Source: Oscillospiraceae bacterium
GTDB lineage: Bacteria; Bacillota; Clostridia; Oscillospirales; Oscillospiraceae
Direction: 5' to 3'
Assembly: GCA_017397075.1 (NCBI GenBank)
Contig: JAFQKD010000081.1
Span: 1-48,407, forward strand
Length of the DNA stretch: 48,407 bases
Below, piece after piece: positions 858 through 45,753 of this stretch. How positions within the stretch are numbered: position 1 is the stretch's first letter; every line of letters starts with the position of its first letter. The translations under genes were made by a program, and so were the position numbers. The notes under the pieces are model-generated. The model made no database searches. It worked only from the letters and a program-made list of their open reading frames with translations, and was not told the DNA's origin.

Positions 858-863
858 CCCTTC

Positions 864-903
864 AAAAAGAGAGGCGTGTCCACCAGGACACGCCTCTCTT
901 TTT
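864..903. terminator. Bidirectional intrinsic terminator shared by convergent genes
   Basis: 18-bp stem AAAAAGAGAGGCGTGTCC / GGACACGCCTCTCTTTTT with loop ACCA. The A-run and T-run flanks work on both strands. It sits between the stop at 857 (+) and the stop at 934 (-). Confidence 0.85.
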
Positions 904-933
904 GAAGTTTTTTGGATTGTACCGCACCAGCGA

Positions 934-4113: not shown

Positions 4114-4159
4114 AAAATCAAATAAACCGCAGTGCGGTCAGAATACACACGAGGTGAAC

Positions 4160-6085
4160 ATGATGAAAAAATTCGGTCATCTGCAGGAAGCACGGCTTTC
4201 TCAGGTCATCCCCTCCGGCTGGCTGAGAACCATGCTGGAAAAACAGCGCGACGGCTTTGCCGGTCATCTGGATGAGATCGGTTATCCCTACGATCTGCCC
4301 TGCTGGCAGCTGAAGACCATGGCTGACGGCGGCTTTGAGCAGTGGTGGCCTTATGAGCAGACAGGCTACTGGATGGATTCCATGACCCGCACCGCCTGTC
4401 TTCTGCGGGACGAGGAGATGATGGCAAAGTTCAAGGGCATCATCGACACCTCCATCGAAAACGCGGTCAGCGGCTTTATCGGCCCCGACGATCTGCAGAA
4501 CGGTGAGGATGTGAGCCATTGGCCTCACGCAGTTTATTTCCGCGCCATCTACGCGCTTTGGAGCGCCACCGGGGATGAAAAGTACCTGAAGGCTATGCAG
4601 CGGCACTACTTCCTGCCCGACACCCACTATGACAATGACCGCGATGCGGTAAACGTGGAATCCATGCTGCGGGTAGCACAGCAGCTGGACAGCGAAGAGC
4701 TGCGTGAATTTGCACGGAAGAACTATCTCTCCCTGCAGGAAAAGTCCGCCGAAACGGCGGATTTCGGCTGGAAGAAAATGCTCACCGAGATCCCCACAGG
4801 CATCCACGGCGTCACCCTTAACGAGATCGGCAAGCTTCCCGCCCTGTACTACCTGTACTTCGGGGATGAGGAGCATCTCAAGGCGGTCATCCACCTGTAC
4901 GATAAGATCCTGCGGGATCATATGCTGCCCGACGGTGTCCACTCCAGCCATGAGTGGACCGCAGGAAACGACTCTCTTCAGTGCCACGAGTCCTGTGACA
5001 TCAGCGACTTCACCTGGAGCGTTGGTTATCTGCTGGAAGCCACAGGGGAAGCCAGATACGGCGATCTCATCGAGCGCGCCATTTTCAATGCCGCTCCCGG
5101 CGTCATTGCCCCGGATTTCGGCGGTATCCAGTATTTCTCCTCCGTAAACCAGATCCGCGCCACCAGAAACGCCTGCCATGCAGACGCATTCCAGAACACC
5201 ACCCGCATGGCTTATCAGCCCCACCACTATCCCGAGTGCTGCGTGGGCAACATCGGCAGAGCCTTCCCCAACTACGTTGCCCGGATGTACTGGGAAGCCG
5301 AAGACGGCATTGCCTGTGTGCTCTATGGGGACAGCGAATTTACCGGCAAGGGCATCACCCTGAAGCAGACCGGCGGCTACCCCTTCAATGATACGGTCAC
5401 CTTTGCCGTTTCCTGCGGGAAGGATACCGAACTGACTCTGCGTTTCCGTCTTCCCGGCTGGTGCAAGGCTCCGCAGCTTCGCGTAAACGGCGCTGCTGCC
5501 GAATACGCCGCAGATAAGGGCTTTGCCGTGATCTCCCGCGTCTGGAAAAACGGCGACACCGTCACCCTGCAGCTTCCCATGGAGTTTACCTCCCATGTCA
5601 CCGATGAGGGCGGCGTGTACTTCGATTACGGTCCCCTGCTCCTCTCTCTCAAAATCAAGGAAAACTGGACCGTGGACAAGGAAGAGCCCCGGCAGACTCC
5701 CGCATTCCCCGCCTACAGCGTGGAGCCGGAGAGTCAGTGGCGCTATGCCGTTACCGGGAAAGAAGTTCCCGCCATCACCTTCCATGAGGTTGGTGTGAAT
5801 CCCTGGTGGAACGATGCCCCCTGGCTTGAGGCCGTTATTCCCGCCCGTGTTCTGAAAAACTGGGACACCGTGAAAAAATCCTCTGTGGCAAAGCACGGCG
5901 AGCAGGGTATCGACGAAAAGCAGATCCGTCTTGGTGCTGTGGAAGTCCGTGAGGATCTGGAGCAGATGCCCCCCCTCCCCTCCGCAGAAGAGATCGCAGC
6001 AGGTCTCGGCGAGGAGGAGAAGATCACCCTCATTCCCTACGGCAGCAGCCATCTCCGCATTGCCATTTTCCCCAAAGCCGAATAA
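4160..6085 (+). CDS. Glycoside hydrolase family 127-like (beta-L-arabinofuranosidase/DUF1680 family)
   Basis: ORF 4085-6085. Preferred ATG at 4160 sits directly after GAGGTG. The HHYPECCVGNIGRA motif matches the Cys/Glu zinc-site region of GH127 enzymes. No signal peptide. Confidence 0.85.
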   Translation: MMKKFGHLQEARLSQVIPSGWLRTMLEKQRDGFAGHLDEIGYPYDLPCWQLKTMADGGFEQWWPYEQTGYWMDSMTRTACLLRDEEMMAKFKGIIDTSIENAVSGFIGPDDLQNGEDVSHWPHAVYFRAIYALWSATGDEKYLKAMQRHYFLPDTHYDNDRDAVNVESMLRVAQQLDSEELREFARKNYLSLQEKSAETADFGWKKMLTEIPTGIHGVTLNEIGKLPALYYLYFGDEEHLKAVIHLYDKILRDHMLPDGVHSSHEWTAGNDSLQCHESCDISDFTWSVGYLLEATGEARYGDLIERAIFNAAPGVIAPDFGGIQYFSSVNQIRATRNACHADAFQNTTRMAYQPHHYPECCVGNIGRAFPNYVARMYWEAEDGIACVLYGDSEFTGKGITLKQTGGYPFNDTVTFAVSCGKDTELTLRFRLPGWCKAPQLRVNGAAAEYAADKGFAVISRVWKNGDTVTLQLPMEFTSHVTDEGGVYFDYGPLLLSLKIKENWTVDKEEPRQTPAFPAYSVEPESQWRYAVTGKEVPAITFHEVGVNPWWNDAPWLEAVIPARVLKNWDTVKKSSVAKHGEQGIDEKQIRLGAVEVREDLEQMPPLPSAEEIAAGLGEEEKITLIPYGSSHLRIAIFPKAE

Positions 6086-6092
6086 AAAAGCC

Positions 6093-6133
6093 GAACCCGC
6101 TTCTTTGCCGTTTTGCGGCGCAGAAGCGGGTTC
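6093..6133 (+). terminator. Hairpin downstream of the GH127 gene (terminator without a clear T-tract)
   Basis: 12-bp stem GAACCCGCTTCT / AGAAGCGGGTTC with a 17-nt loop. No U-run follows it. Confidence 0.45.
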
Positions 6134-6166
6134 TCTGCAAAATCCGACATTTTTCTTTGCCGAATC

Positions 6167-6195
6167 TTTACTATTCAGGGAAGTTATAGTATACT
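6167..6195 (+). promoter_or_regulatory. Possible sigma-A promoter for the antiporter gene
   Basis: TTTACT, 17-nt spacer, TATACT (6190-6195). Confidence 0.4.
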
Positions 6196-6226
6196 GTTGT
6201 GGAATCTTAAAAAAAGAGGTCCTACA

Positions 6227-7261
6227 ATGATCGAACAGTTTCTTGCATGGTATAACGGGCTGACTTCCAGCCTTATCGGTTCTCTGGCGCTTTTTGCTGT
6301 GGGCGTTCTGCTGCTCATCAAGGGCGGCGACTGGTTCGTTGACAGTGCCGTGGGCATTGCCAAGCGCTTCCATGTGCCGGAGATCATCATCGGCGCAACG
6401 GTGGTTTCCATCGGCACGACCCTGCCCGAGGTCATGGTATCCGTGACCGCTGCGGTAAACGATAACGGCGCCATCGCATACGGCAACGCCATCGGCTCCA
6501 TCATCTGCAACACAGCGCTTATTGCAGCGCTGACCATTGCCATCCGTCCTGCGCCCGTAAACCGGAAGGCTGTTGTGACCCCGGTTCTGTTTTTCTTCGT
6601 CTCCGCTGCCATCTATATGATCGCCGCCTATGTTTTCGGCCGTTTTGACCGCTGGCTCGGCTTTGTGATGCTGGCAGTTTTTGCCGCTTACATGGCCTCC
6701 ACCATCTACAGGGGCTTCAGGACCCCCGCCGAAGAAAAGACCGAGGAAGAATCGGAAGAGGGCGGCAAGTCCGGTTCCCTTCTGAAGGACCTCATCGTGC
6801 TTGTGCTCAGTGCGGCGCTTATCGCTGTGGGCGCAGATATGCTGGAAGGCTCTTCCGTCTCCCTTGCCACCATGGCAGGCATCCCCACCGAGGTCATCGG
6901 CGTTACGGTGGTGGCTCTGTGCACCTCTCTGCCCGAGCTCGTCACCGCCATCACTGCCCTTGTTAAGGGACACGGCGCACTGTCTCTGGGCAACATCATC
7001 GGTGCCAACATCTTTAACCTTGTGCTGGTTTCCGGTGCTGCCGTCAGCATTTCCCCCTTCGTCATTCCCGAGGGCAGCAAGCTCTTCGGCTATAATACCT
7101 CTCAGCTTATCGAGATCCCCCTCATGGTGACCGTTATGGCGCTCATGACCCTCCCTGTGCTGAAAAAGGGCAGGCTGTACCGCTGGCAGGGCATCACGCT
7201 GCTGGGCATCTATGCGGCATTTGTCACCCTGCAGGTCCTCATTGCCGTGGGTATTTTCTGA
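6227..7261 (+). CDS. Calcium/sodium (CaCA, YrbG-type) antiporter
   Basis: ORF 6113-7261. ATG at 6227 follows AAGAGGT. Two alpha-repeat motifs are present: GATVVSIGTTLPE and GVTVVALCTSLPELV. Confidence 0.85.
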   Translation: MIEQFLAWYNGLTSSLIGSLALFAVGVLLLIKGGDWFVDSAVGIAKRFHVPEIIIGATVVSIGTTLPEVMVSVTAAVNDNGAIAYGNAIGSIICNTALIAALTIAIRPAPVNRKAVVTPVLFFFVSAAIYMIAAYVFGRFDRWLGFVMLAVFAAYMASTIYRGFRTPAEEKTEEESEEGGKSGSLLKDLIVLVLSAALIAVGADMLEGSSVSLATMAGIPTEVIGVTVVALCTSLPELVTAITALVKGHGALSLGNIIGANIFNLVLVSGAAVSISPFVIPEGSKLFGYNTSQLIEIPLMVTVMALMTLPVLKKGRLYRWQGITLLGIYAAFVTLQVLIAVGIF

Positions 7262-16747: not shown

Positions 16748-16750
16748 AAA

Positions 16751-16778
16751 AGTCCCTGAAACCTTGGTTTCAGGGACT
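16751..16778. terminator. Bidirectional intrinsic terminator
   Basis: 12-bp stem AGTCCCTGAAAC / GTTTCAGGGACT flanked by an A-run and a T-run. Lies between convergent stops at 16747 and 16787. Confidence 0.85.
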
Positions 16779-16786
16779 TTTGCTGC

Positions 16787-27110: not shown

Positions 27111-27620
27111 ATGGCAGGACGGGTAAAAAAGCAAAAACTCACGGGCATGATCCTCTTTCTTATCGGTATTGTCTTTGTCGCCTTTATGATCGCCGCCCTT
27201 GTATGGATGCTGGCACTGCAGAAGCAGTGGACGGATTTCAAGATTGATTTTGCGGAGGCTGCAGCAGAGGGAGCGGCTGAAAGTTCCGTCACGGTTACCG
27301 ACGGAAATGATCTTTACATTCTCCATCCGGAAAACTGCCAGTGGTTCACCTCTCAGGTCATTGCCGCAAAGCAGCTGCCCTTTCAGCGGAAAAATCCGGA
27401 GCATTATGACCTCACCCTGACCTTCCCCAACGGAAGCTTTATGGAGCTAACGGGACGGGAGGACGGCGGCGTTCTTTTGCGGTATTCGACGGCATCGGGC
27501 GAGAATTACCGCTTCTCTTTGGGCGAGCTTGCCCAGTGGGACACCTACTATGCCCTCCTCACCGAAGGCTTCGCCTACAAAAACACCTTTGCCTCACCGG
27601 ATGCGATGCTGATCCAGTAA
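27111..27620 (+). CDS. Hypothetical membrane-anchored protein
   Basis: ORF 27072-27620. ATG at 27111 follows AAAGGAG. Single N-terminal TM (GMILFLIGIVFVAFMIAALVWML). No family recognised. Confidence 0.55.
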   Translation: MAGRVKKQKLTGMILFLIGIVFVAFMIAALVWMLALQKQWTDFKIDFAEAAAEGAAESSVTVTDGNDLYILHPENCQWFTSQVIAAKQLPFQRKNPEHYDLTLTFPNGSFMELTGREDGGVLLRYSTASGENYRFSLGELAQWDTYYALLTEGFAYKNTFASPDAMLIQ

Positions 27621-27650
27621 AAAGAAGCGTGTCTGTGACACGCTTCTTTT
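27620..27650. terminator. Bidirectional intrinsic terminator
   Basis: AAAAGAAGCGTGTC-TGT-GACACGCTTCTTTT between convergent stops at 27620 and 27651. Confidence 0.85.
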
Positions 27651-28217
27651 TTATCCCCGCACGATGGGCTGCAGCTGCCGGCCTTCCATTGCAGCGGATA
27701 TCGTTTCACAAAGCAGTGTCAGATCCGCTGTCAGCGACCGGGGCTTCTTTTCCGGGTCATCCTGACGGAAGGGCACGATGTAAATGTGCCGTCTGTTCAA
27801 AAGCAGACCCAGATTTGCCGCCGAGCCGGAAAGCCCGTCATTTGTGGAGGGGGCAAGGATCACAGGTCTCCCGTTTCTCAGCTGGGATTTGGCCGCCATG
27901 GTCACCGCCGTATCGTTTACGCCTCCGGCGATCTTTGCCATGGTGTTTCCTGTACAGGGGCAGATCACAAGGGCATCAAAAAGCTTTTTCGGCCCGATGG
28001 GCTCCGCTTGGGCAATGGTGGTGATGGCAGGCACACCGCAGATTTCTTCCGCTTCCCGGACAAAATCCGCAGCCTTCCCGAAGCGGGTATCCATCGTTGC
28101 CGCATGCTCCGAAAAGACCGGCACGGCGCTGCCGAAGGTCTCCTTCACAGACCGAAGCGCCTCCATGGCTGCCCGGAAAGTGCAGAAGGAGCCCGTAAAT
28201 GCAAAACCCACCGTCAC
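27651..28217 (-). CDS. dpaB: Dipicolinate synthase subunit B (flavoprotein)
   Basis: MTVGFAFTGSFCTF N-terminus and PCTGNTMAKIAGG motif. GTG start overlapping the dpaA stop (GTGA). Confidence 0.85.
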   Translation of the reverse strand: MTVGFAFTGSFCTFRAAMEALRSVKETFGSAVPVFSEHAATMDTRFGKAADFVREAEEICGVPAITTIAQAEPIGPKKLFDALVICPCTGNTMAKIAGGVNDTAVTMAAKSQLRNGRPVILAPSTNDGLSGSAANLGLLLNRRHIYIVPFRQDDPEKKPRSLTADLTLLCETISAAMEGRQLQPIVRG

Positions 28218-34421: not shown

Positions 34422-34841
34422 ATGAAACGCAGCATGACAGCGGAAGCAGGCAAGCGTACCCTCCATGTGGCAGCAGCCCTCATTTGGCAGAAGGACAGGT
34501 TTCTCATCTGCCGCAGACCTCCGGAAAAATCCCGCGGTCTTGACTGGGAATTTGTAGGCGGCAAGCTGGAGCCGGGAGAAACCGGGGAAGAAGCCCTCAT
34601 CCGGGAATGCCGGGAGGAGCTGGATGTCACCGTTAAGCCGGGGGAAGTGTTCATGCGTCTGACCCACGAATACCCGGATGTATTTGTGGAGCTCACGCTG
34701 TATAACGCCGTCATCACCGAAGGCGCGCCAAAAATGCTGGAGCATGTGGGAATGTGCTGGATCACCCCCGAGGAGATCGACAGCTTCAAATTCTGCCCCG
34801 CAGATGCCGTCATTCTGGAAAAACTGAAGGGCAGCGCATAA
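34422..34841 (+). CDS. mutT: NUDIX hydrolase, MutT/(d)CTP pyrophosphohydrolase-like
   Basis: Nudix box GGKLEPGETGEEALIRECREELDV. ORF starts at 34359. Preferred ATG is 34422 (34434 is also possible). Extended -10 TGCTATACT at 34390-34398. Confidence 0.85.
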   Translation: MKRSMTAEAGKRTLHVAAALIWQKDRFLICRRPPEKSRGLDWEFVGGKLEPGETGEEALIRECREELDVTVKPGEVFMRLTHEYPDVFVELTLYNAVITEGAPKMLEHVGMCWITPEEIDSFKFCPADAVILEKLKGSA

Positions 34842-34844
34842 AGG

Positions 34845-34866
34845 AAGGAGAGCCATCAGCTCTCCT
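34845..34866 (+). repeat. 22-nt hairpin-forming boundary repeat, copy 1
   Basis: AAGGAGAGCCATCAGCTCTCCT. 21/22 identical to 35410-35431. 8-bp stem, no T-tract after it. Confidence 0.8.
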
Positions 34867-34998
34867 ATAGACATGATCTTCAAGATATCAACGAATTGCT
34901 GGATGGTTGATGAATCAATACGACAAGGTTCCGGCGCAAGCCGGAACACGGGATTGAGAGCGAAAAGGTCGGTTAGAACATAAACTTATCGCAGCCCC

Positions 34999-35016
34999 CG
35001 TCTCTTCGTCTTTCGT
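34999..35016 (+). repeat. Exact 18-nt direct repeat, copy 1 (CGTCTCTTCGTCTTTCGT)
   Basis: Identical to 35256-35273. Both copies are preceded by CCCCCG. Confidence 0.85.
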
Positions 35017-35255
35017 CCCCCGCCAGGAGAGTCTCGTCGTCGCGGATTCCATATCGCGCGCTTCGGCGCACACGCCAAAGCTTGTTCATTCCATCGCTCC
35101 TCCTCTCCAAACCGAACCCGCTTTGCTGGGCTTCGGTTTGGTTTCCTCTGGCCGCTTCAAGGGAGTTTCCAAAGAGGGGAAATACGGAATCCCCTCTTTG
35201 GTTGTTCTTTTGGATACTTTTCTGTCAACACAGAAAAGTATCACCCCCGTCCAAT

Positions 35256-35273
35256 CGTCTCTTCGTCTTTCGT
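35256..35273 (+). repeat. Exact 18-nt direct repeat, copy 2
   Basis: Identical to 34999-35016. Compared with copy 1, 8 extra nt (TCCAATCG) separate it from the CCCCCG. Confidence 0.85.
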
Positions 35274-35407
35274 TATATCAATCCCTCAGTCACCTGCGGT
35301 GACAGCTCCCTTTACACAAGGGAGCCTATTTGATAGACAGTGATTTGTGAATTTCTGCTTATAACCGAATACCAACGGAGATCGCAATGTTATCTTTTTG
35401 ACAAGCT

Positions 35408-35437
35408 GAAAGGAGAGCCATCGGCTCTCCTTTCTTT
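35408..35437 (+). terminator. Intrinsic terminator (contains boundary repeat copy 2, 35410-35431)
   Basis: 12-bp stem GAAAGGAGAGCC / GGCTCTCCTTTC with a 3-nt loop, followed by TTTATAT on the + strand. Abuts the stop of the - strand Sir2 gene, where the downstream flank is not U-rich. Confidence 0.6.
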
Positions 35438-36158
35438 ATATGTTGATCTTGGAAAACACGTCCCCAAGCTTTTCCGTAAACAGCAGATCTGCCGCGCTGT
35501 CATAGCTTGTGGGACTTTTGTTGATGAGCACGAGCCGCTTCCCCCGGTAATACCGCAGAAGTCCGGCCGCAGGATACACCACAAGAGAGGTACCGCCCAC
35601 AATGAGCATATCCGCATTCCGAATGGCATCCACCGCACCCTGCACCACATCGTCCTCCAGCATTTCACCGTACATGACGATATCCGGGCGGATCACCCCG
35701 CCGCAGCCGCATCGGGGAGTGCCCGCGCAGTTCATATGGCCGATCCCCGAAAACCGCTTTCCGCAGGATACACAGTGATTGCGAAACAGAGAGCCGTGAA
35801 GCTCCCAGACCTGACGGCTTCCCGCCTTTTGGTGGAGCCCGTCAATATTCTGGGTCACGATGCCCGCAAGATGCCCCGCTTTTTCCAAGGCGGCAAGCTT
35901 TTCATGGGTCACATTCGGCTTTGCATCGTCCACCATGAGCTTTTCCCGGTAAAAACGGTAGAAGGTATCCGGATCCCGGCGGAAGAAATCACAGCTTAAG
36001 ATCTCCTCCGGCGGCACATCGTAATGCTGATTATACAGTCCGTCCTGACTGCGGAAATCGGGAATTCCGCTTTCCGTGCTGACGCCCGCGCCCCCGAAAA
36101 ACACAGCGCTGCGGCTTTCCTCCAGCCAGCGCTGCAGAAGCTTTATGTTCTCCTCCAC
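35436..36158 (-). CDS. cobB: NAD-dependent protein deacylase, Sir2 family (CobB-type)
   Basis: GAGVSTESGIPDFRS, zinc ribbon CVSCGKRF...CGCGG, IRPDIVMYGE. Confidence 0.9.
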   Translation of the reverse strand: MEENIKLLQRWLEESRSAVFFGGAGVSTESGIPDFRSQDGLYNQHYDVPPEEILSCDFFRRDPDTFYRFYREKLMVDDAKPNVTHEKLAALEKAGHLAGIVTQNIDGLHQKAGSRQVWELHGSLFRNHCVSCGKRFSGIGHMNCAGTPRCGCGGVIRPDIVMYGEMLEDDVVQGAVDAIRNADMLIVGGTSLVVYPAAGLLRYYRGKRLVLINKSPTSYDSAADLLFTEKLGDVFSKINI

Positions 36159-43479: not shown

Positions 43480-44811
43480 ATGACTTCTTTAAAAGAACGC
43501 ATACGAAAATCCCGGCTTTTCTTCCTCTACAATCCCCGTGACCCCTACAGTCTCGGGCGTCTCATAATGCTCAGCAGCACAGCCACCGCAAACCTCGCCA
43601 GCGTCCTCACCACCGGTCTGTTTTATACCGGTTTTCTCATTGACAACGGCATAAATCTCACCAGTATCGGTATTCTCACCTTTGTACCGCCCATCACGAG
43701 CTGCTTCACCCTGCTTTCCCCCCTGATCCTTGAGCGGTTCAAAAAACGAAAATGGCTGCTGTTCTTCTTCCGCATGATGTACTACTCCATGTACATCCTT
43801 GGCGGAACGCTGGTGCCTCTGTTTGTCCATGACCCCGCCATGAAGGTGGTCTGTTTCGTGGTGGTGGTGTTCCTCGGTCATTCCTTCAACGCCCTTTCCT
43901 CCAGCGGTTTTTCCGCCTGGCATATCAATTTCATGCCGGATAATGTCCGTGCGGAGCACATCGGCATAAACTCCCTTGTGGCGAATATTTCCGCACAGGG
44001 CTTCGGTCTCATTTTCGCCCTCATTGCGGACGCCTTTGCAGGTACACCCGGAGAGTCCGGTCTCTTTATCACCCTGCGTTTCATTGCCTATGCGGTGGGC
44101 ATCTTTGACTGCATTCTGCTTCTTATCCCCAGGGAATTTCCCTACGGTTCCTCCGGCGAAAAGCCCCGCATCCGGGACATCTTCGTCAAATCCCTCAGAA
44201 ACAAAAAATTTGCCGGCTGCATCATGCTTCTCTGCATGTGGACCTTTGCCTACAACCTGCCGGCTTCCGTATTGAACTATCGCATCCTTGAGGAGCTGAA
44301 GCTGAGCTATTCCTACATTCAGGTCATCAACGTCATCTACCCCATCTTCGTCTTTGCCTTCCTTGTCCCCTGCCAGCGCTTTATCAAGAAGCTGGGCTGG
44401 CTGGAGACCATGAGCATCGGCATCTGTATGGATATCGTTTCCTTCTTTGCCTACGGTCTCGTGGTACCCGGAAACGTAAGCTGGCTTTTCCCCACCGTGC
44501 GTATTGTCCAGCATCTCTCCACCTCCCTGTTTTCCGGCATCCCGGTAAACAATCTGGTGTACTTCAACCTTCCTGATGAAGACCGCACCCATTATCTCAG
44601 CTTCTATATTCTGGCAAACAACGCCGCATCTTTTCTGGGACTCATGTGCGGCACATGGTTTGTCACCATCGCCCCGGATTTCAGCTTCCACATCGGCAGC
44701 ATCCACGTGGGGAACATTCAGTTTTTGCTGATGCTCCAGTCTCTCATGCTGCTTGTGATGCTCATCACCGTTCAGTTCACCAAAAAGAAGCTGCGCCCCA
44801 GCACCATGTGA
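43480..44811 (+). CDS. MFS-type (GPH-like?) 12-TM transporter, paralogue 2
   Basis: GGAGGTACTCCT-ATG. Shares blocks with paralogue 1, for example TTGLFYTxFLIxNGINL, ILERxxKRKW, SAWHINFxPxxVRAEHxGINS. Confidence 0.75.
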   Translation: MTSLKERIRKSRLFFLYNPRDPYSLGRLIMLSSTATANLASVLTTGLFYTGFLIDNGINLTSIGILTFVPPITSCFTLLSPLILERFKKRKWLLFFFRMMYYSMYILGGTLVPLFVHDPAMKVVCFVVVVFLGHSFNALSSSGFSAWHINFMPDNVRAEHIGINSLVANISAQGFGLIFALIADAFAGTPGESGLFITLRFIAYAVGIFDCILLLIPREFPYGSSGEKPRIRDIFVKSLRNKKFAGCIMLLCMWTFAYNLPASVLNYRILEELKLSYSYIQVINVIYPIFVFAFLVPCQRFIKKLGWLETMSIGICMDIVSFFAYGLVVPGNVSWLFPTVRIVQHLSTSLFSGIPVNNLVYFNLPDEDRTHYLSFYILANNAASFLGLMCGTWFVTIAPDFSFHIGSIHVGNIQFLLMLQSLMLLVMLITVQFTKKKLRPSTM

Positions 44812-44814
44812 CCC

Positions 44815-44850
44815 AATACCTCCGTCCGAAAAAGGACGGAGGTATTTTTT
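44815..44850 (+). terminator. Intrinsic terminator after the transporter pair
   Basis: 13-bp stem AATACCTCCGTCC / GGACGGAGGTATT followed by TTTTT. Confidence 0.9.
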
Positions 44851-44853
44851 CTG

Positions 44854-44882
44854 TTGCACTTGGGGAAAAGGCAGATTATAAT
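44854..44882 (+). promoter_or_regulatory. Sigma-A-type promoter of the dehydratase operon
   Basis: TTGCAC, 17-nt spacer, TATAAT. Confidence 0.7.
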
Positions 44883-44910
44883 GGCGGTAACCTGAAGGGA
44901 GGCTTACGGC

Positions 44911-45753
44911 ATGAAGCTGCATCTGTACAATCTGGTTTCCCGGGAGGAGATCTCTTCCCGAAATGTCCCGGATGCGGACTGGAAGACCGTTTCCGCAGGA
45001 GGCAGTGTCTTTACGCTGATAAGCCGCGAAGGCAGAGCCGCCGCCTTCCGCATCACGGAGGACGGAGAGGGCTGCCTCCCCGTTCCCCTTCCCCAAAACT
45101 GGCAGAATCTGAAGGAAGCTGCGGTAAGCTGTCTCCATGAGGGGCACATTGCCGCCTGCGACCTTTTCGGAAAGATCCATTTCTGCACCCCGGAAAAAGC
45201 CGATTGCGTGCGTTTTCCCAAGGGCGTGCAGAAAATCAGCTCCGGCTGTGTGCTTGCAGCGCTGACACCGGAGGGCAGGGTCTTTTACCGTGCCTATCAA
45301 AGCCGTTACGGCGGCGATGCATGGACGGATACCGGCTGGGAAAACGTTGCGGACATCTCCGCAGGTCCCCGGCGTCTTTGCGGCGTCACCGCAGACGGGC
45401 AGGTACTGCTGCAGTCCTTTGCAGGAAGCGCCGCGGACTTCTTTGAGCCAAGTCCACGTGGTCTCACTCAGGCATCCGCCGCTGCGGAAGGTCATACCGG
45501 GATCTATACCCTGCGGGACGGCAGGCTCTGTCTCAACGGCAGGATCCTCGGCGCGGGAAGCGATTTTACCGCACTTGGCTGCGGTGTCAGCACCACGCTG
45601 GAATTTGCCGTCTGCCGCAGAAGGGACGGCTCCTTCCTCACGGCGCTCACCGGCGGCACTTTTATTCCCTCATCCATGTTCATCCCCGATGCACAGTCTG
45701 TTGCCCTCTGGGATGCGGGAGACAGGTTCATGGCCTGTCTCAGCCAAGAATGA
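44911..45753 (+). CDS. Hypothetical protein with RCC1-like/beta-propeller-type repeats
   Basis: GGGAGG RBS. Repeating x-S-x-G-...-T-x-x-G-(R/Q)-V blade-like units (ISSGCVLAALTPEGRVF, ISAGPRRLCGVTADGQVL). Family not firmly recognised. Confidence 0.55.
   Translation: MKLHLYNLVSREEISSRNVPDADWKTVSAGGSVFTLISREGRAAAFRITEDGEGCLPVPLPQNWQNLKEAAVSCLHEGHIAACDLFGKIHFCTPEKADCVRFPKGVQKISSGCVLAALTPEGRVFYRAYQSRYGGDAWTDTGWENVADISAGPRRLCGVTADGQVLLQSFAGSAADFFEPSPRGLTQASAAAEGHTGIYTLRDGRLCLNGRILGAGSDFTALGCGVSTTLEFAVCRRRDGSFLTALTGGTFIPSSMFIPDAQSVALWDAGDRFMACLSQE

What the first reader, a model, noticed from the sequence alone, without database searches (positions are those of the whole stretch)
34842..35438. 594-bp ORF-free, hairpin-dense module between convergent genes, bounded by a duplicated 22-nt hairpin
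The NUDIX gene (stop at 34841) and the Sir2 gene (stop at 35436) converge on a spacer far longer than a shared terminator needs. No credible ORF lies in it.

Boundaries: the segment is bounded by AAGGAGAGCCATCAGCTCTCCT (34845-34866) and the same 22-mer with one A>G change (35410-35431). Each copy is itself a hairpin. Only the distal copy is followed by a T-tract on the + strand.

Interior hairpins, all perfect or near-perfect:
- 34928-34947: 8 bp, GCAA loop
- 35058-35069: C-UUCG-G
- 35107-35141: 10+3 bp
- 35169-35201: 12 bp
- 35213-35242: 13 bp
- 35289-35303: 6 bp
- 35305-35325: 8 bp

The GNRA and UUCG tetraloops are canonical only when read on the + strand. An exact 18-nt pyrimidine-rich direct repeat (CGTCTCTTCGTCTTTCGT) occurs at 34999 and 35256, each time after CCCCCG.

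Two readings fit:
(a) A roughly 0.55-kb ornate RNA, either independent or a structured 3' UTR of the NUDIX gene that ends at the 35408-35437 terminator.
(b) A BOX/REP/MITE-like non-autonomous element that inserted into an ancestral bidirectional terminator and duplicated it.

No transposase, integrase, reverse transcriptase or Cas gene is nearby to explain it.
Basis: partly seen in the sequence, partly recalled or inferred. Interest (0 to 1): 0.75.

Follow-up and report, generated by a model that had tools for sequence, protein, structure and literature searches.

The report
Mobile hairpin-rich insert splitting a terminator
The 594-bp gene-free stretch is a copy of a small non-coding repeat element that landed in the shared terminator hairpin of two convergent genes and duplicated that hairpin; it is absent from the same site in near-identical strains and present at another terminator elsewhere in the genome.

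Summary

- **Empty sites.** Strains about 99% and 90% identical carry one bidirectional terminator hairpin here (spacers of 29 and 27 bp). Two more distant relatives do too (37 and 34 bp).
- **Filled site.** The window has a 543-bp insert (34867-35409) between two direct copies of that hairpin (22-mer, 21/22 identical).
- **Second locus.** One genome with this site empty carries a homologous 306-bp copy between an aldo/keto-reductase operon and a lipase gene. That copy is bracketed by a 30-nt duplication of that locus's own, unrelated terminator, and a related strain has that site empty.
- **Other copies.** A third copy is inferred from contigs that switch flanks inside the element.
- **What it lacks.** No ORF with a Pfam hit, no terminal inverted repeats, no Rfam match, and no transposase, integrase, RT or Cas hit among the 29 window ORFs scanned.
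- **Mosaic structure.** An outer unit encloses an inner three-hairpin cluster, which covaries across species. It also holds a 50-nt two-hairpin module dispersed in gut Clostridia and phage-like contigs.

The mechanism is inferred: staggered cuts at both feet of the terminator stem.

A single "ornate RNA gene" is not supported. Read-through transcription is likely but untested.

The parts
34845..34866 (.). Left copy of the duplicated terminator hairpin (target-site duplication, AAGGAGAGCCATCAGCTCTCCT). It keeps the A-rich left tail, so it can terminate - strand transcription. It has lost the T-tract needed to terminate NUDIX.
   Evidence: The empty-site alleles L091 and L092 have one hairpin.
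34867..35409 (+). Inserted non-coding element (543 bp interior), the most complete copy seen. It is absent from the same site in L091, L092 and L093.
34867..34900 (+). Left linker. It is poorly conserved between copies A, B and C.
34901..35016 (+). Conserved left core, 93-94% identical in copies at other loci (copy B in L098; left part of L095). It contains the 8-bp GCAA hairpin at 34928-34947.
34999..35016 (+). First copy of the exact 18-nt direct repeat CGTCTCTTCGTCTTTCGT. The 8-nt CCCCCGTC repeat starts at 34995. Both repeats bracket the inner hairpin cluster.
35017..35255 (+). Inner hairpin cluster: UUCG hairpin 35058-69, hp1 35107-41, hp2 35169-201 with an outer stem 35158-65/35205-12, and hp3 35213-42. 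The corresponding stretch (35003-35251, between the CCCCCGTC repeats) is missing in L089/L090. The cluster is also absent from copy B. Relatives occur in other species (L099, L105, L106) with compensatory stem changes and a conserved hp2 loop.
35256..35273 (+). Second copy of the 18-nt direct repeat. The second CCCCCGTC lies at 35244-35251.
35279..35327 (+). Two-hairpin module (H1 35289-35303, H2 35305-35325). It belongs to a dispersed family found in gut Clostridia and phage-like contigs. H1 is swapped for another variant at the same locus in L089, L094, L095 and L097.
35328..35409 (+). Right arm of the element. It is identical among locus-A alleles and roughly 60% identical to copy B (read off the alignment).
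35410..35431 (.). Right copy of the duplicated terminator hairpin. The full stem-loop is 35408-35434, followed by TTTATATGTT. This is the only + strand terminator-like site flanking the insert.

Best explanation
**What it is (shown).** The spacer is one copy of a small, ORF-less, hairpin-rich repeat element. The interior is about 0.3 kb in deleted forms and 0.54 kb here. The element is insertion-polymorphic and occurs at several loci in this uncultured Oscillospirales-like bacterium. At each documented locus it sits inside what was a single bidirectional intrinsic terminator between convergent genes. The whole terminator stem-loop is present as a direct repeat on both sides: 22-23 nt here, and 30 nt at the aldo/keto-reductase/lipase locus.

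**How it gets there (inferred).** Integration involves cuts on opposite strands at the two feet of the terminator palindrome. This would be structure-guided rather than sequence-guided, because the two targets are unrelated in sequence and the duplication length follows the hairpin length. Gap repair then duplicates the hairpin. The enzyme acts in trans and is unknown. The element has no terminal inverted repeats and no conserved terminal nucleotides.

**What happens afterwards.**
- Copies decay by deletion between internal direct repeats (18-nt and 8-nt).
- Copies exchange segments by gene conversion, as the H1 swap shows.
- The element is a mosaic of at least three repeat families: an outer unit, an inner hairpin cluster flanked by CCCCCGTC repeats, and a 50-nt two-hairpin module.

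**Consequence (inferred).** Each gene's nearest hairpin has lost its U-tract. Transcripts of both genes probably read through the element to the distal hairpin, giving ~0.57-kb overlapping structured 3' ends.
For: **Empty sites at locus A.**
- L091 is 99% identical on both flanks and has a 29-bp spacer with one hairpin.
- L092/L093 are about 90% identical and have a 27-bp spacer, AAAAAAGGAGAGCCATCGGCTCTCCTTTTTT.
- L002 and L088 (Sir2 75-76% identical, same gene order in L002) have 37- and 34-bp spacers with single, different hairpins.

**Filled alleles from independent assemblies.** Window, L089, L090, and partial copies in L001, L094, L095, L096 and L097.

**Second copy in the genome that is empty at locus A.**
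- L098 (GCA_054281795.1) shares its core with the window at 94% and 87% identity.
- It aligns end to end with the 297-bp form.
- It is flanked by AAAACGGCAGTTCTT[T/C]CGAACTGCCGTTTC at 6220-6249 and 6555-6584.
- Its empty site is seen in L101.

**Third context.** L094 and L095 carry the same Sir2 protein, but their left flanks differ from the window's starting at position ~34901.

**Extent of the duplication.** It is limited to the hairpin; there is no similarity beyond it.

**No coding or enzyme signal.**

**Structural constraint.** hp1-hp3 keep pairing through compensatory changes in L099, L105 and L106. In total, 11 of 33 predicted pairs change on both sides, and the hp2 loop is conserved.
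Against: - Only two loci have both filled and empty alleles. The third copy rests on low-coverage contigs that may be chimeric.
- The full genome could not be read, so copy number is unknown.
- No candidate enzyme, excision product or autonomous relative was found.
- The ends next to the duplication are the least conserved part of the element (roughly 60% identity against about 92% in the centre, read off the alignment). This is unusual for a transposase substrate.
- Distant relatives of the inner cluster (L106) lie next to a terminator without a second hairpin copy.
- Precise loss by recombination between the two hairpin copies could also produce empty alleles. The direction of each individual event is therefore inferred from outgroups, not observed.
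Confidence: 0.68

Rival explanations
1. Templated insertion without a dedicated enzyme. Replication or repair stalls at the terminator palindrome and switches template to another copy of the repeat. The palindrome is duplicated as a by-product of fill-in at hairpin-capped or staggered ends.
For: No TIRs and no conserved terminal nucleotides. The ends are poorly conserved. The duplication length equals the hairpin length. No transposase was found in the window.
Against: The same ~300-nt unit, with similar end-to-end length (297 vs 306 nt), was inserted at two or more loci. Random template switching would be expected to copy varied segments and to show junction microhomology. None is evident.
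Confidence: 0.15
2. The insert is primarily a functional structured RNA. It would be either a long 3' UTR or a 3'-derived sRNA of NUDIX, or an antisense RNA for Sir2. Its hairpins would be maintained for RNA function, and the mobility would be incidental.
For: The fold is very stable. The inner hairpins show compensatory changes, a conserved 9-nt loop, and an outer stem with three conserved G.U pairs on the + strand. The + strand terminator lies only at the distal end. The dispersed module often lies just upstream of same-strand ORFs.
Against: - No Rfam family matches.
- No promoter-like site occurs inside.
- The whole insert is absent in a ~99% identical strain.
- Other copies lack the central 240 nt.
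- Folding energy does not favour the + strand.
- The covariation rests on only 4 sequences.
Confidence: 0.1
3. It is the scar of a larger integrated element (prophage or ICE) that used the hairpin as its attachment site. The two hairpins would be attL and attR, and most of the element has since been deleted.
For: Direct repeats of 22-30 nt are typical att-core sizes. The internal module is common in phage-like contigs.
Against: Two loci have homologous inserts but unrelated 'att' sequences, each identical to the local terminator. Site-specific recombination needs the same core in the element and the target. The insert lengths are similar at both loci. No integrase remnant was detected (one search tested Sir2 only).
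Confidence: 0.04
4. It is a decayed gene or a segmental duplication of the Sir2 or NUDIX gene end.
For: There are weak, non-collinear blastx matches to Sir2 (best E = 3.9), and a shared 7-mer after both hairpins.
Against: The matches are at chance level. There are no Pfam hits. The same insert occurs at an unrelated locus.
Confidence: 0.02

Closest known systems
MITEs and other small non-autonomous bacterial repeats (Correia, RUP, BOX, ERIC, bcr1)
   Same: Small, non-coding, hairpin-forming and multi-copy. Located in intergenic 3' regions. Shows presence/absence polymorphism with flanking direct repeats.
   Different: No terminal inverted repeats. The flanking duplication is 22-30 bp and equals a whole terminator hairpin, rather than a short fixed 2-10 bp. 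No parent IS is known.
REP / BIME / REPIN clusters (E. coli, Pseudomonas) and neisserial NIMEs
   Same: Mosaic of several palindromic repeat families stacked between convergent genes. The 50-nt module behaves like a REP unit: it is dispersed, its stems covary, and it sometimes occurs as ~130-nt palindromic doublets.
   Different: The flanking hairpins here are locus-specific duplicated terminators, not a genome-wide repeat such as dRS3 or REP. The module has no GTAG head. RAYT association is untested.
Group IIC introns (insert after intrinsic terminators; own knowledge, Robart et al. 2007)
   Same: Homes to terminator stem-loops by structure, and sits directly after the hairpin.
   Different: No intron domains are detected by Rfam. 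The element is flanked by a target duplication, which reverse splicing does not make.
Cas1-Cas2 spacer integration / casposon integration (own knowledge; PMC5137440 appeared in the search list but was not read)
   Same: The outcome is the same. Staggered attack at both borders of a ~20-35-bp, often palindromic, target leads to duplication of that whole target around the insert.
   Different: No Cas1 gene was found in the window. The insert is 0.3-0.5 kb with no TIRs. Casposon duplications are a fixed 14-15 bp. This is an analogy of mechanism only.
IS1634/IS1549-type IS4 elements with long, variable direct repeats (own knowledge)
   Same: Long and variable target duplications.
   Different: Those elements have TIRs and a transposase gene, and their duplications are not tied to hairpins.

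Membership tests
MITE | Small, non-coding, more than one genomic copy | tested here: met
   No Pfam hit on the spacer ORFs scanned. Copies occur at the NUDIX/Sir2 and AKR/lipase loci, and a third left flank is seen.
MITE | Terminal inverted repeats | tested here: not met
   The local alignment of the left end against the reverse-complemented right end scores at the shuffle mean for A_long, A_short and B.
MITE | Short target-site duplication of fixed length | tested here: not met
   22-23 nt at locus A and 30 nt at locus B, each equal to the local hairpin.
MITE | Related autonomous IS with the same ends | not testable with these tools
   The genome is not available beyond the window. No transposase was found among the window ORFs scanned.
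REP/BIME/REPIN | Short GC-rich palindromic unit dispersed in many copies | tested here: inconclusive
   This is true of the 50-nt module across many contigs. Only one copy occurs in the 48-kb window. The per-genome copy number is unknown.
REP/BIME/REPIN | Conserved GTAG-type head and a cognate RAYT gene | tested here: not met
   The module consensus CCCTCAGTC...GACAGC has no GTAG head. No RAYT was seen. Other families with GTAG heads exist in some fetched loci.
Group IIC intron | Domain V/VI and D1-D4 RNA structure | tested here: not met
   No Rfam hit, even at E <= 10.
IS200/IS605-derived PATE | No target duplication; insertion 3' of a conserved tetra- or pentanucleotide | tested here: not met
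   A long duplication is present. The bases preceding the shared core differ among copies.
Large ornate ncRNAs (OLE, GOLLD, ROOL, HEARO, raiA) | Match to the family covariance model | tested here: not met
   cmscan at gathering and E-value thresholds gave no such hits on the window or on related loci.
Integrated element with att repeats | Same core sequence in the element and in every target | tested here: not met
   The repeats at loci A and B are unrelated to each other. Each is identical to the local empty-site hairpin.

The most novel reading that the evidence does not exclude
This would be an undescribed class of terminator-homing, TIR-less, non-autonomous element. Its integration would be directed by DNA secondary structure, with cuts at both feet of an intrinsic-terminator hairpin, so the target duplication is the hairpin itself and varies with hairpin length. 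That implies an unrecognised structure-specific integrase (casposase/Cas1-like or resolvase-like), or an RNA-mediated insertion pathway, in gut Clostridia.
Probability: 0.25. Interest if true: 0.85.

Novelty: new variant of a known kind. Interest (0 to 1): 0.6.

Why it matters
Small non-coding repeats are poorly catalogued in uncultured gut Firmicutes.

This family shows a clean signature that standard MITE finders would miss, because they look for TIRs plus a short duplication. The signature is a filled and an empty allele at each of two loci, with the whole terminator duplicated.

If the structure-guided insertion holds up, it points to a new integration chemistry. It would also be a way in which terminators are rewired: one bidirectional terminator becomes two distal ones, with ~0.57-kb convergent read-through.

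In practice, the element breaks or mis-joins metagenome assemblies (L001, L094-L097). It also marks strain-level variation.

The 50-nt two-hairpin module and the inner hairpin cluster, with its conserved loop, are candidates for new RNA or ssDNA motif families. Neither is in Rfam.

Tried and rejected
1. **Rfam.** Searched at gathering score over the whole window and at E <= 10 on the region. Only chance-level hits to single hairpins. Related loci gave nothing either.
2. **Coding remnants.** Four spacer ORFs had no Pfam hit. blastx against 120 Sir2 homologues gave a best E of 3.9, non-collinear.
3. **The 22-mer as a dispersed TIR.** The GTDB scan gave 6 single hits in unrelated phyla, all ordinary terminators. 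It is therefore convergent, not a repeat family.
4. **Other copies in the window.** None.
5. **Plasmid collection.** No match.
6. **First metagenome scan and viral scan with the left-core hairpin.** 0 hits, even though a JGI contig fetched separately contains the pattern. That collection evidently lacks this organism.
7. **Terminal inverted repeats.** Absent.
8. **A duplication longer than the hairpin.** Not supported.
9. **The 27-nt hairpin repeat flanking modules in L058.** This looked like a further terminator duplication, but it is a GTAG-headed REP-like repeat.
10. **Strand of function from folding energy.** No consistent + preference.
11. **Genes between inverted modules in L081.** These are nfeD-like and SPFH-like by sequence inspection, not a transposase.
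12. **Looking up the flank gene of L094 directly.** I went through a homologue search instead.
13. **Literature searches.** Searches for the motif sequence and for terminator-duplicating elements found nothing relevant.

Full report
**1. Observation**

The spacer 34842-35435 lies between a NUDIX gene (+, stop 34839-34841; Pfam NUDIX/NUDIX_4) and a Sir2-family deacylase gene (-, stop 35436-35438; Pfam SIR2).

- The 22-mer AAGGAGAGCCATC[A/G]GCTCTCCT occurs at 34845 and 35410 and nowhere else in the window. Zero copies are expected by chance.
- The exact 18-mer CGTCTCTTCGTCTTTCGT occurs at 34999 and 35256.
- All the listed hairpins are present at the stated coordinates.
- The region folds far better than dinucleotide shuffles on both strands, with z = -9.2 and -7.9.
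- G+C drops from about 57% to 42-50%.
- Four spacer ORFs were scanned against Pfam with no hit.
- Rfam finds nothing at gathering score in the whole window. At E <= 10 it finds only chance hits to single hairpins.
- No promoter-like site lies inside. The only terminator-like sites flanking the insert are the distal hairpin on + and the proximal hairpin on -.

**2. The spacer is an insertion: empty sites**

The Sir2 protein's closest relatives outside its own 90% cluster are 75-76% identical.

- In L002 the gene order is BNR-Sir2 >< NUDIX-DnaD-DnaC-MatE-MazG, as in the window. Its Sir2/NUDIX spacer is 37 bp with one bidirectional terminator of different sequence.
- L088 has a 34-bp spacer.

Within the 90% cluster:

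- L091 (GCA_054281795.1) is 99% identical to the window on both flanks. It has a 29-bp spacer with the single hairpin AAGGAAGGAGAGCC-TTT-GGCTCTCCTTCCTT. The two flank alignments overlap exactly on the 22-mer.
- L092/L093 (about 90% identical) have AAAAAAGGAGAGCCATCGGCTCTCCTTTTTT.
- L089 and L090, from two different samples, have a 347-bp spacer. This is the window's spacer minus 249 bp (35003-35251, bounded by the 8-nt repeat CCCCCGTC).

The site therefore exists in three states: empty, filled-short and filled-long. In the filled states the hairpin is a direct repeat. The loop reads ATC in both copies, so the repeat is direct, not inverted.

**3. It is a dispersed repeat: a second locus with its own filled and empty alleles**

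Contigs L094 and L095 encode the same Sir2 protein. They match the window at 98-99% identity from Sir2 leftwards into the element. Their left flanks then differ from the window's, starting at about 34901.

The L094 flank encodes an aldo/keto reductase. I searched with that protein and fetched its locus from the genome that is empty at NUDIX/Sir2 (L098, GCA_054281795.1).

There, a 378-bp spacer between the reductase operon and a convergent GDSL-lipase gene holds a 306-bp homologue of the element.

- It is 94% identical over window 34902-35017 and 87% over 35244-35327.
- It aligns end to end with the 297-bp short form.
- It is bracketed by AAAACGGCAGTTCTT[T/C]CGAACTGCCGTTTC at 6220-6249 and 6555-6584. 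This 30-nt direct repeat is that locus's own terminator and is unrelated to the NUDIX/Sir2 hairpin.
- A related strain (L101) has this site empty, with the single hairpin.

L094 is therefore a join, by assembly or by recombination, across the repeat. L095 reveals a third left context.

Several short contigs also end inside the element (L001, L096, L097). That is what a repeat does to assemblies, although low coverage could also explain it.

**4. Anatomy**

- The duplication is confined to the hairpin. Sequences beyond it on the two sides are no more alike than shuffles.
- There are no terminal inverted repeats.
- The bases next to the duplication differ between copies.
- The centre is about 92% identical between copies A and B, but the ends are only roughly 60% identical (read off the alignment). 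I attribute this to gene conversion that homogenises interiors more than edges. This is an inference, but conversion is directly visible: at locus A, hairpin H1 of the module is TCACCTGCGGTGA in the window and TCTCGCATTCGCTCGA in L089, L094, L095 and L097, within otherwise identical sequence.

The long form is probably ancestral.

- The inner cluster (35017-35255) is bracketed by the 18-nt and 8-nt direct repeats.
- Copy B has one 18-mer and no cluster. L089 has one CCCCCGTC followed by the cluster's last bases (CAAT). L095 lacks 110 nt of the cluster.
- These are three different deletions.

Relatives of the inner cluster exist in other species. L099 was found by nhmmer. L105 and L106 are two loci of one JGI sample, found with a degenerate pattern. 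These relatives are again bracketed by CCCCCGTC(C) repeats.

Across the four sequences:

- hp2 and hp3 keep pairing through changes on both sides (11 of 33 predicted pairs).
- The hp2 loop AAAUnCGGAR is conserved.
- An outer stem (35158-65/35205-12) has three conserved G.U pairs.

hp1 also covaries between the window and L099.

The 50-nt module (35279-35327) is a separate, widespread family.

- It hits five unannotated 'Bacteriophage sp.' faecal contigs.
- An exact degenerate pattern hits 71 IMG/VR stretches.
- Among 64 parsed instances there are 17 different H1 and 57 different H2 sequences. Nearly all keep the stems.
- It often lies just upstream of same-strand ORFs.
- It sometimes forms ~130-nt palindromic doublets.

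Neither the module nor the cluster is in Rfam.

**5. Mechanism**

*Shown.* The same non-coding unit has been inserted at two or more terminators. Each time it is bracketed by a direct duplication of the local stem-loop. The duplication length (22-23 vs 30 nt) follows the hairpin.

*Inferred.*

- Nicks on opposite strands at the two feet of the palindrome, followed by fill-in, would give exactly this result. The outcome parallels repeat duplication by Cas1-Cas2 or casposases. That is an analogy, not membership.
- The enzyme is unknown. The 29 window ORFs scanned include none with a transposase, integrase, RT or Cas hit.
- An enzyme-free template-switch origin cannot be excluded.
- After insertion, the NUDIX-proximal hairpin is followed by AUAGAC and the Sir2-proximal one by AGCUUG. 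Neither has a U-tract. Both genes therefore probably read through to the distal hairpin.

**6. Comparison and novelty**

It works like a MITE or a REP/BIME-type selfish repeat, and like a terminator-homing element. It fails the defining tests for several classes:

- MITEs: no TIRs, and no short fixed duplication.
- Group IIC introns: no intron RNA.
- IS200/605 derivatives: it has a duplication.
- att-flanked scars: the cores differ at the two loci.
- Known large RNAs: no Rfam match.

Four literature searches found no description.

I file it as a new variant of a known kind, namely small non-autonomous repeats. There is a roughly one-in-four chance that the hairpin-length duplication marks a new integration mechanism.

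**7. Limits**

- Only two loci have both states.
- Copy number is unknown.
- The third copy rests on contigs of ~1.7x coverage.
- Covariation of the inner cluster rests on four sequences.
- The strand of any functional single-stranded form is undetermined.
- Transcription is untested.

Noticed in passing
window 35279-35327; L012-L087: A ~50-nt two-hairpin motif, CCCTCAGTC-[variable stem-loop]-GACAGCTCCCyy-loop-rrGGGAGCC. It is dispersed in gut Clostridia and phage-like contigs: 71 IMG/VR stretches and 5 GenBank 'Bacteriophage sp.' records. Both stems covary. It is absent from Rfam and was not found in four literature searches. It is often directly upstream of same-strand ORFs, for example five copies in L042.
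   Followed up: partly
L015 ~1500-1630, L016 ~1135-1270, L026, L066/L080: The same motif occurs as ~130-nt imperfect palindromic doublets (a left arm plus a G-rich right arm), reminiscent of REPINs. Arrays of such units fill some intergenic regions (L058, L066).
   Followed up: partly
L022 ~5100-5300, L055 10190-10424, L058 1666-1935: Other REP-like repeats with a GTAG head (TGTAGGGGCCGATGACC...CATCGGCCC; TTGTAGGGGCGAACAGTGTTCGCCC) occur in the same kinds of contigs.
   Followed up: no
window 35289-35303 vs L089/L094/L095/L097: Hairpin H1 of the module is replaced as a block (TCACCTGCGGTGA vs TCTCGCATTCGCTCGA) between strains that are otherwise ~98% identical at this locus. This looks like gene conversion from another copy. 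The second variant has a 2x2 pyrimidine internal loop and recurs in unrelated contigs (L021, L063).
   Followed up: partly
window 34858; L098 ~6235: At both loci the left copy of the duplicated hairpin differs from the right copy and from the empty site by a single transition in or next to the loop (G>A at locus A, C>T at locus B).
   Followed up: no
L094 (1-3793), L095 (1-3104): Low-coverage metagenome contigs join the Sir2 side of this locus to the flank of another copy of the element. These are chimeric assemblies or real recombinants across the repeat.
   Followed up: partly
L106 1303-1387 (-): A c-di-GMP-I-GGC riboswitch (70.6 bits, above the gathering score) lies upstream of a secreted protein that looks transglutaminase-like by sequence inspection.
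   Followed up: no
L099 3650-3880: In a related species, the spacer after the aldo/keto-reductase operon holds a G-rich 'right-arm' version of the module and a CTCAACT-type microsatellite, instead of the element seen in L098.
   Followed up: no
window 860-907, 16748-16781, 27619-27651, 44815-44846: Long perfect hairpins (13-22 bp stems with A/T tails) that look like ordinary single bidirectional terminators. None is duplicated.
   Followed up: no
window 4118-6973 (-), 43489-45495 (-): Long ORFs (951 and 668 aa) with no Pfam hit at E <= 1e-5. The frames were chosen by a crude GC3 heuristic and may be wrong.
   Followed up: no
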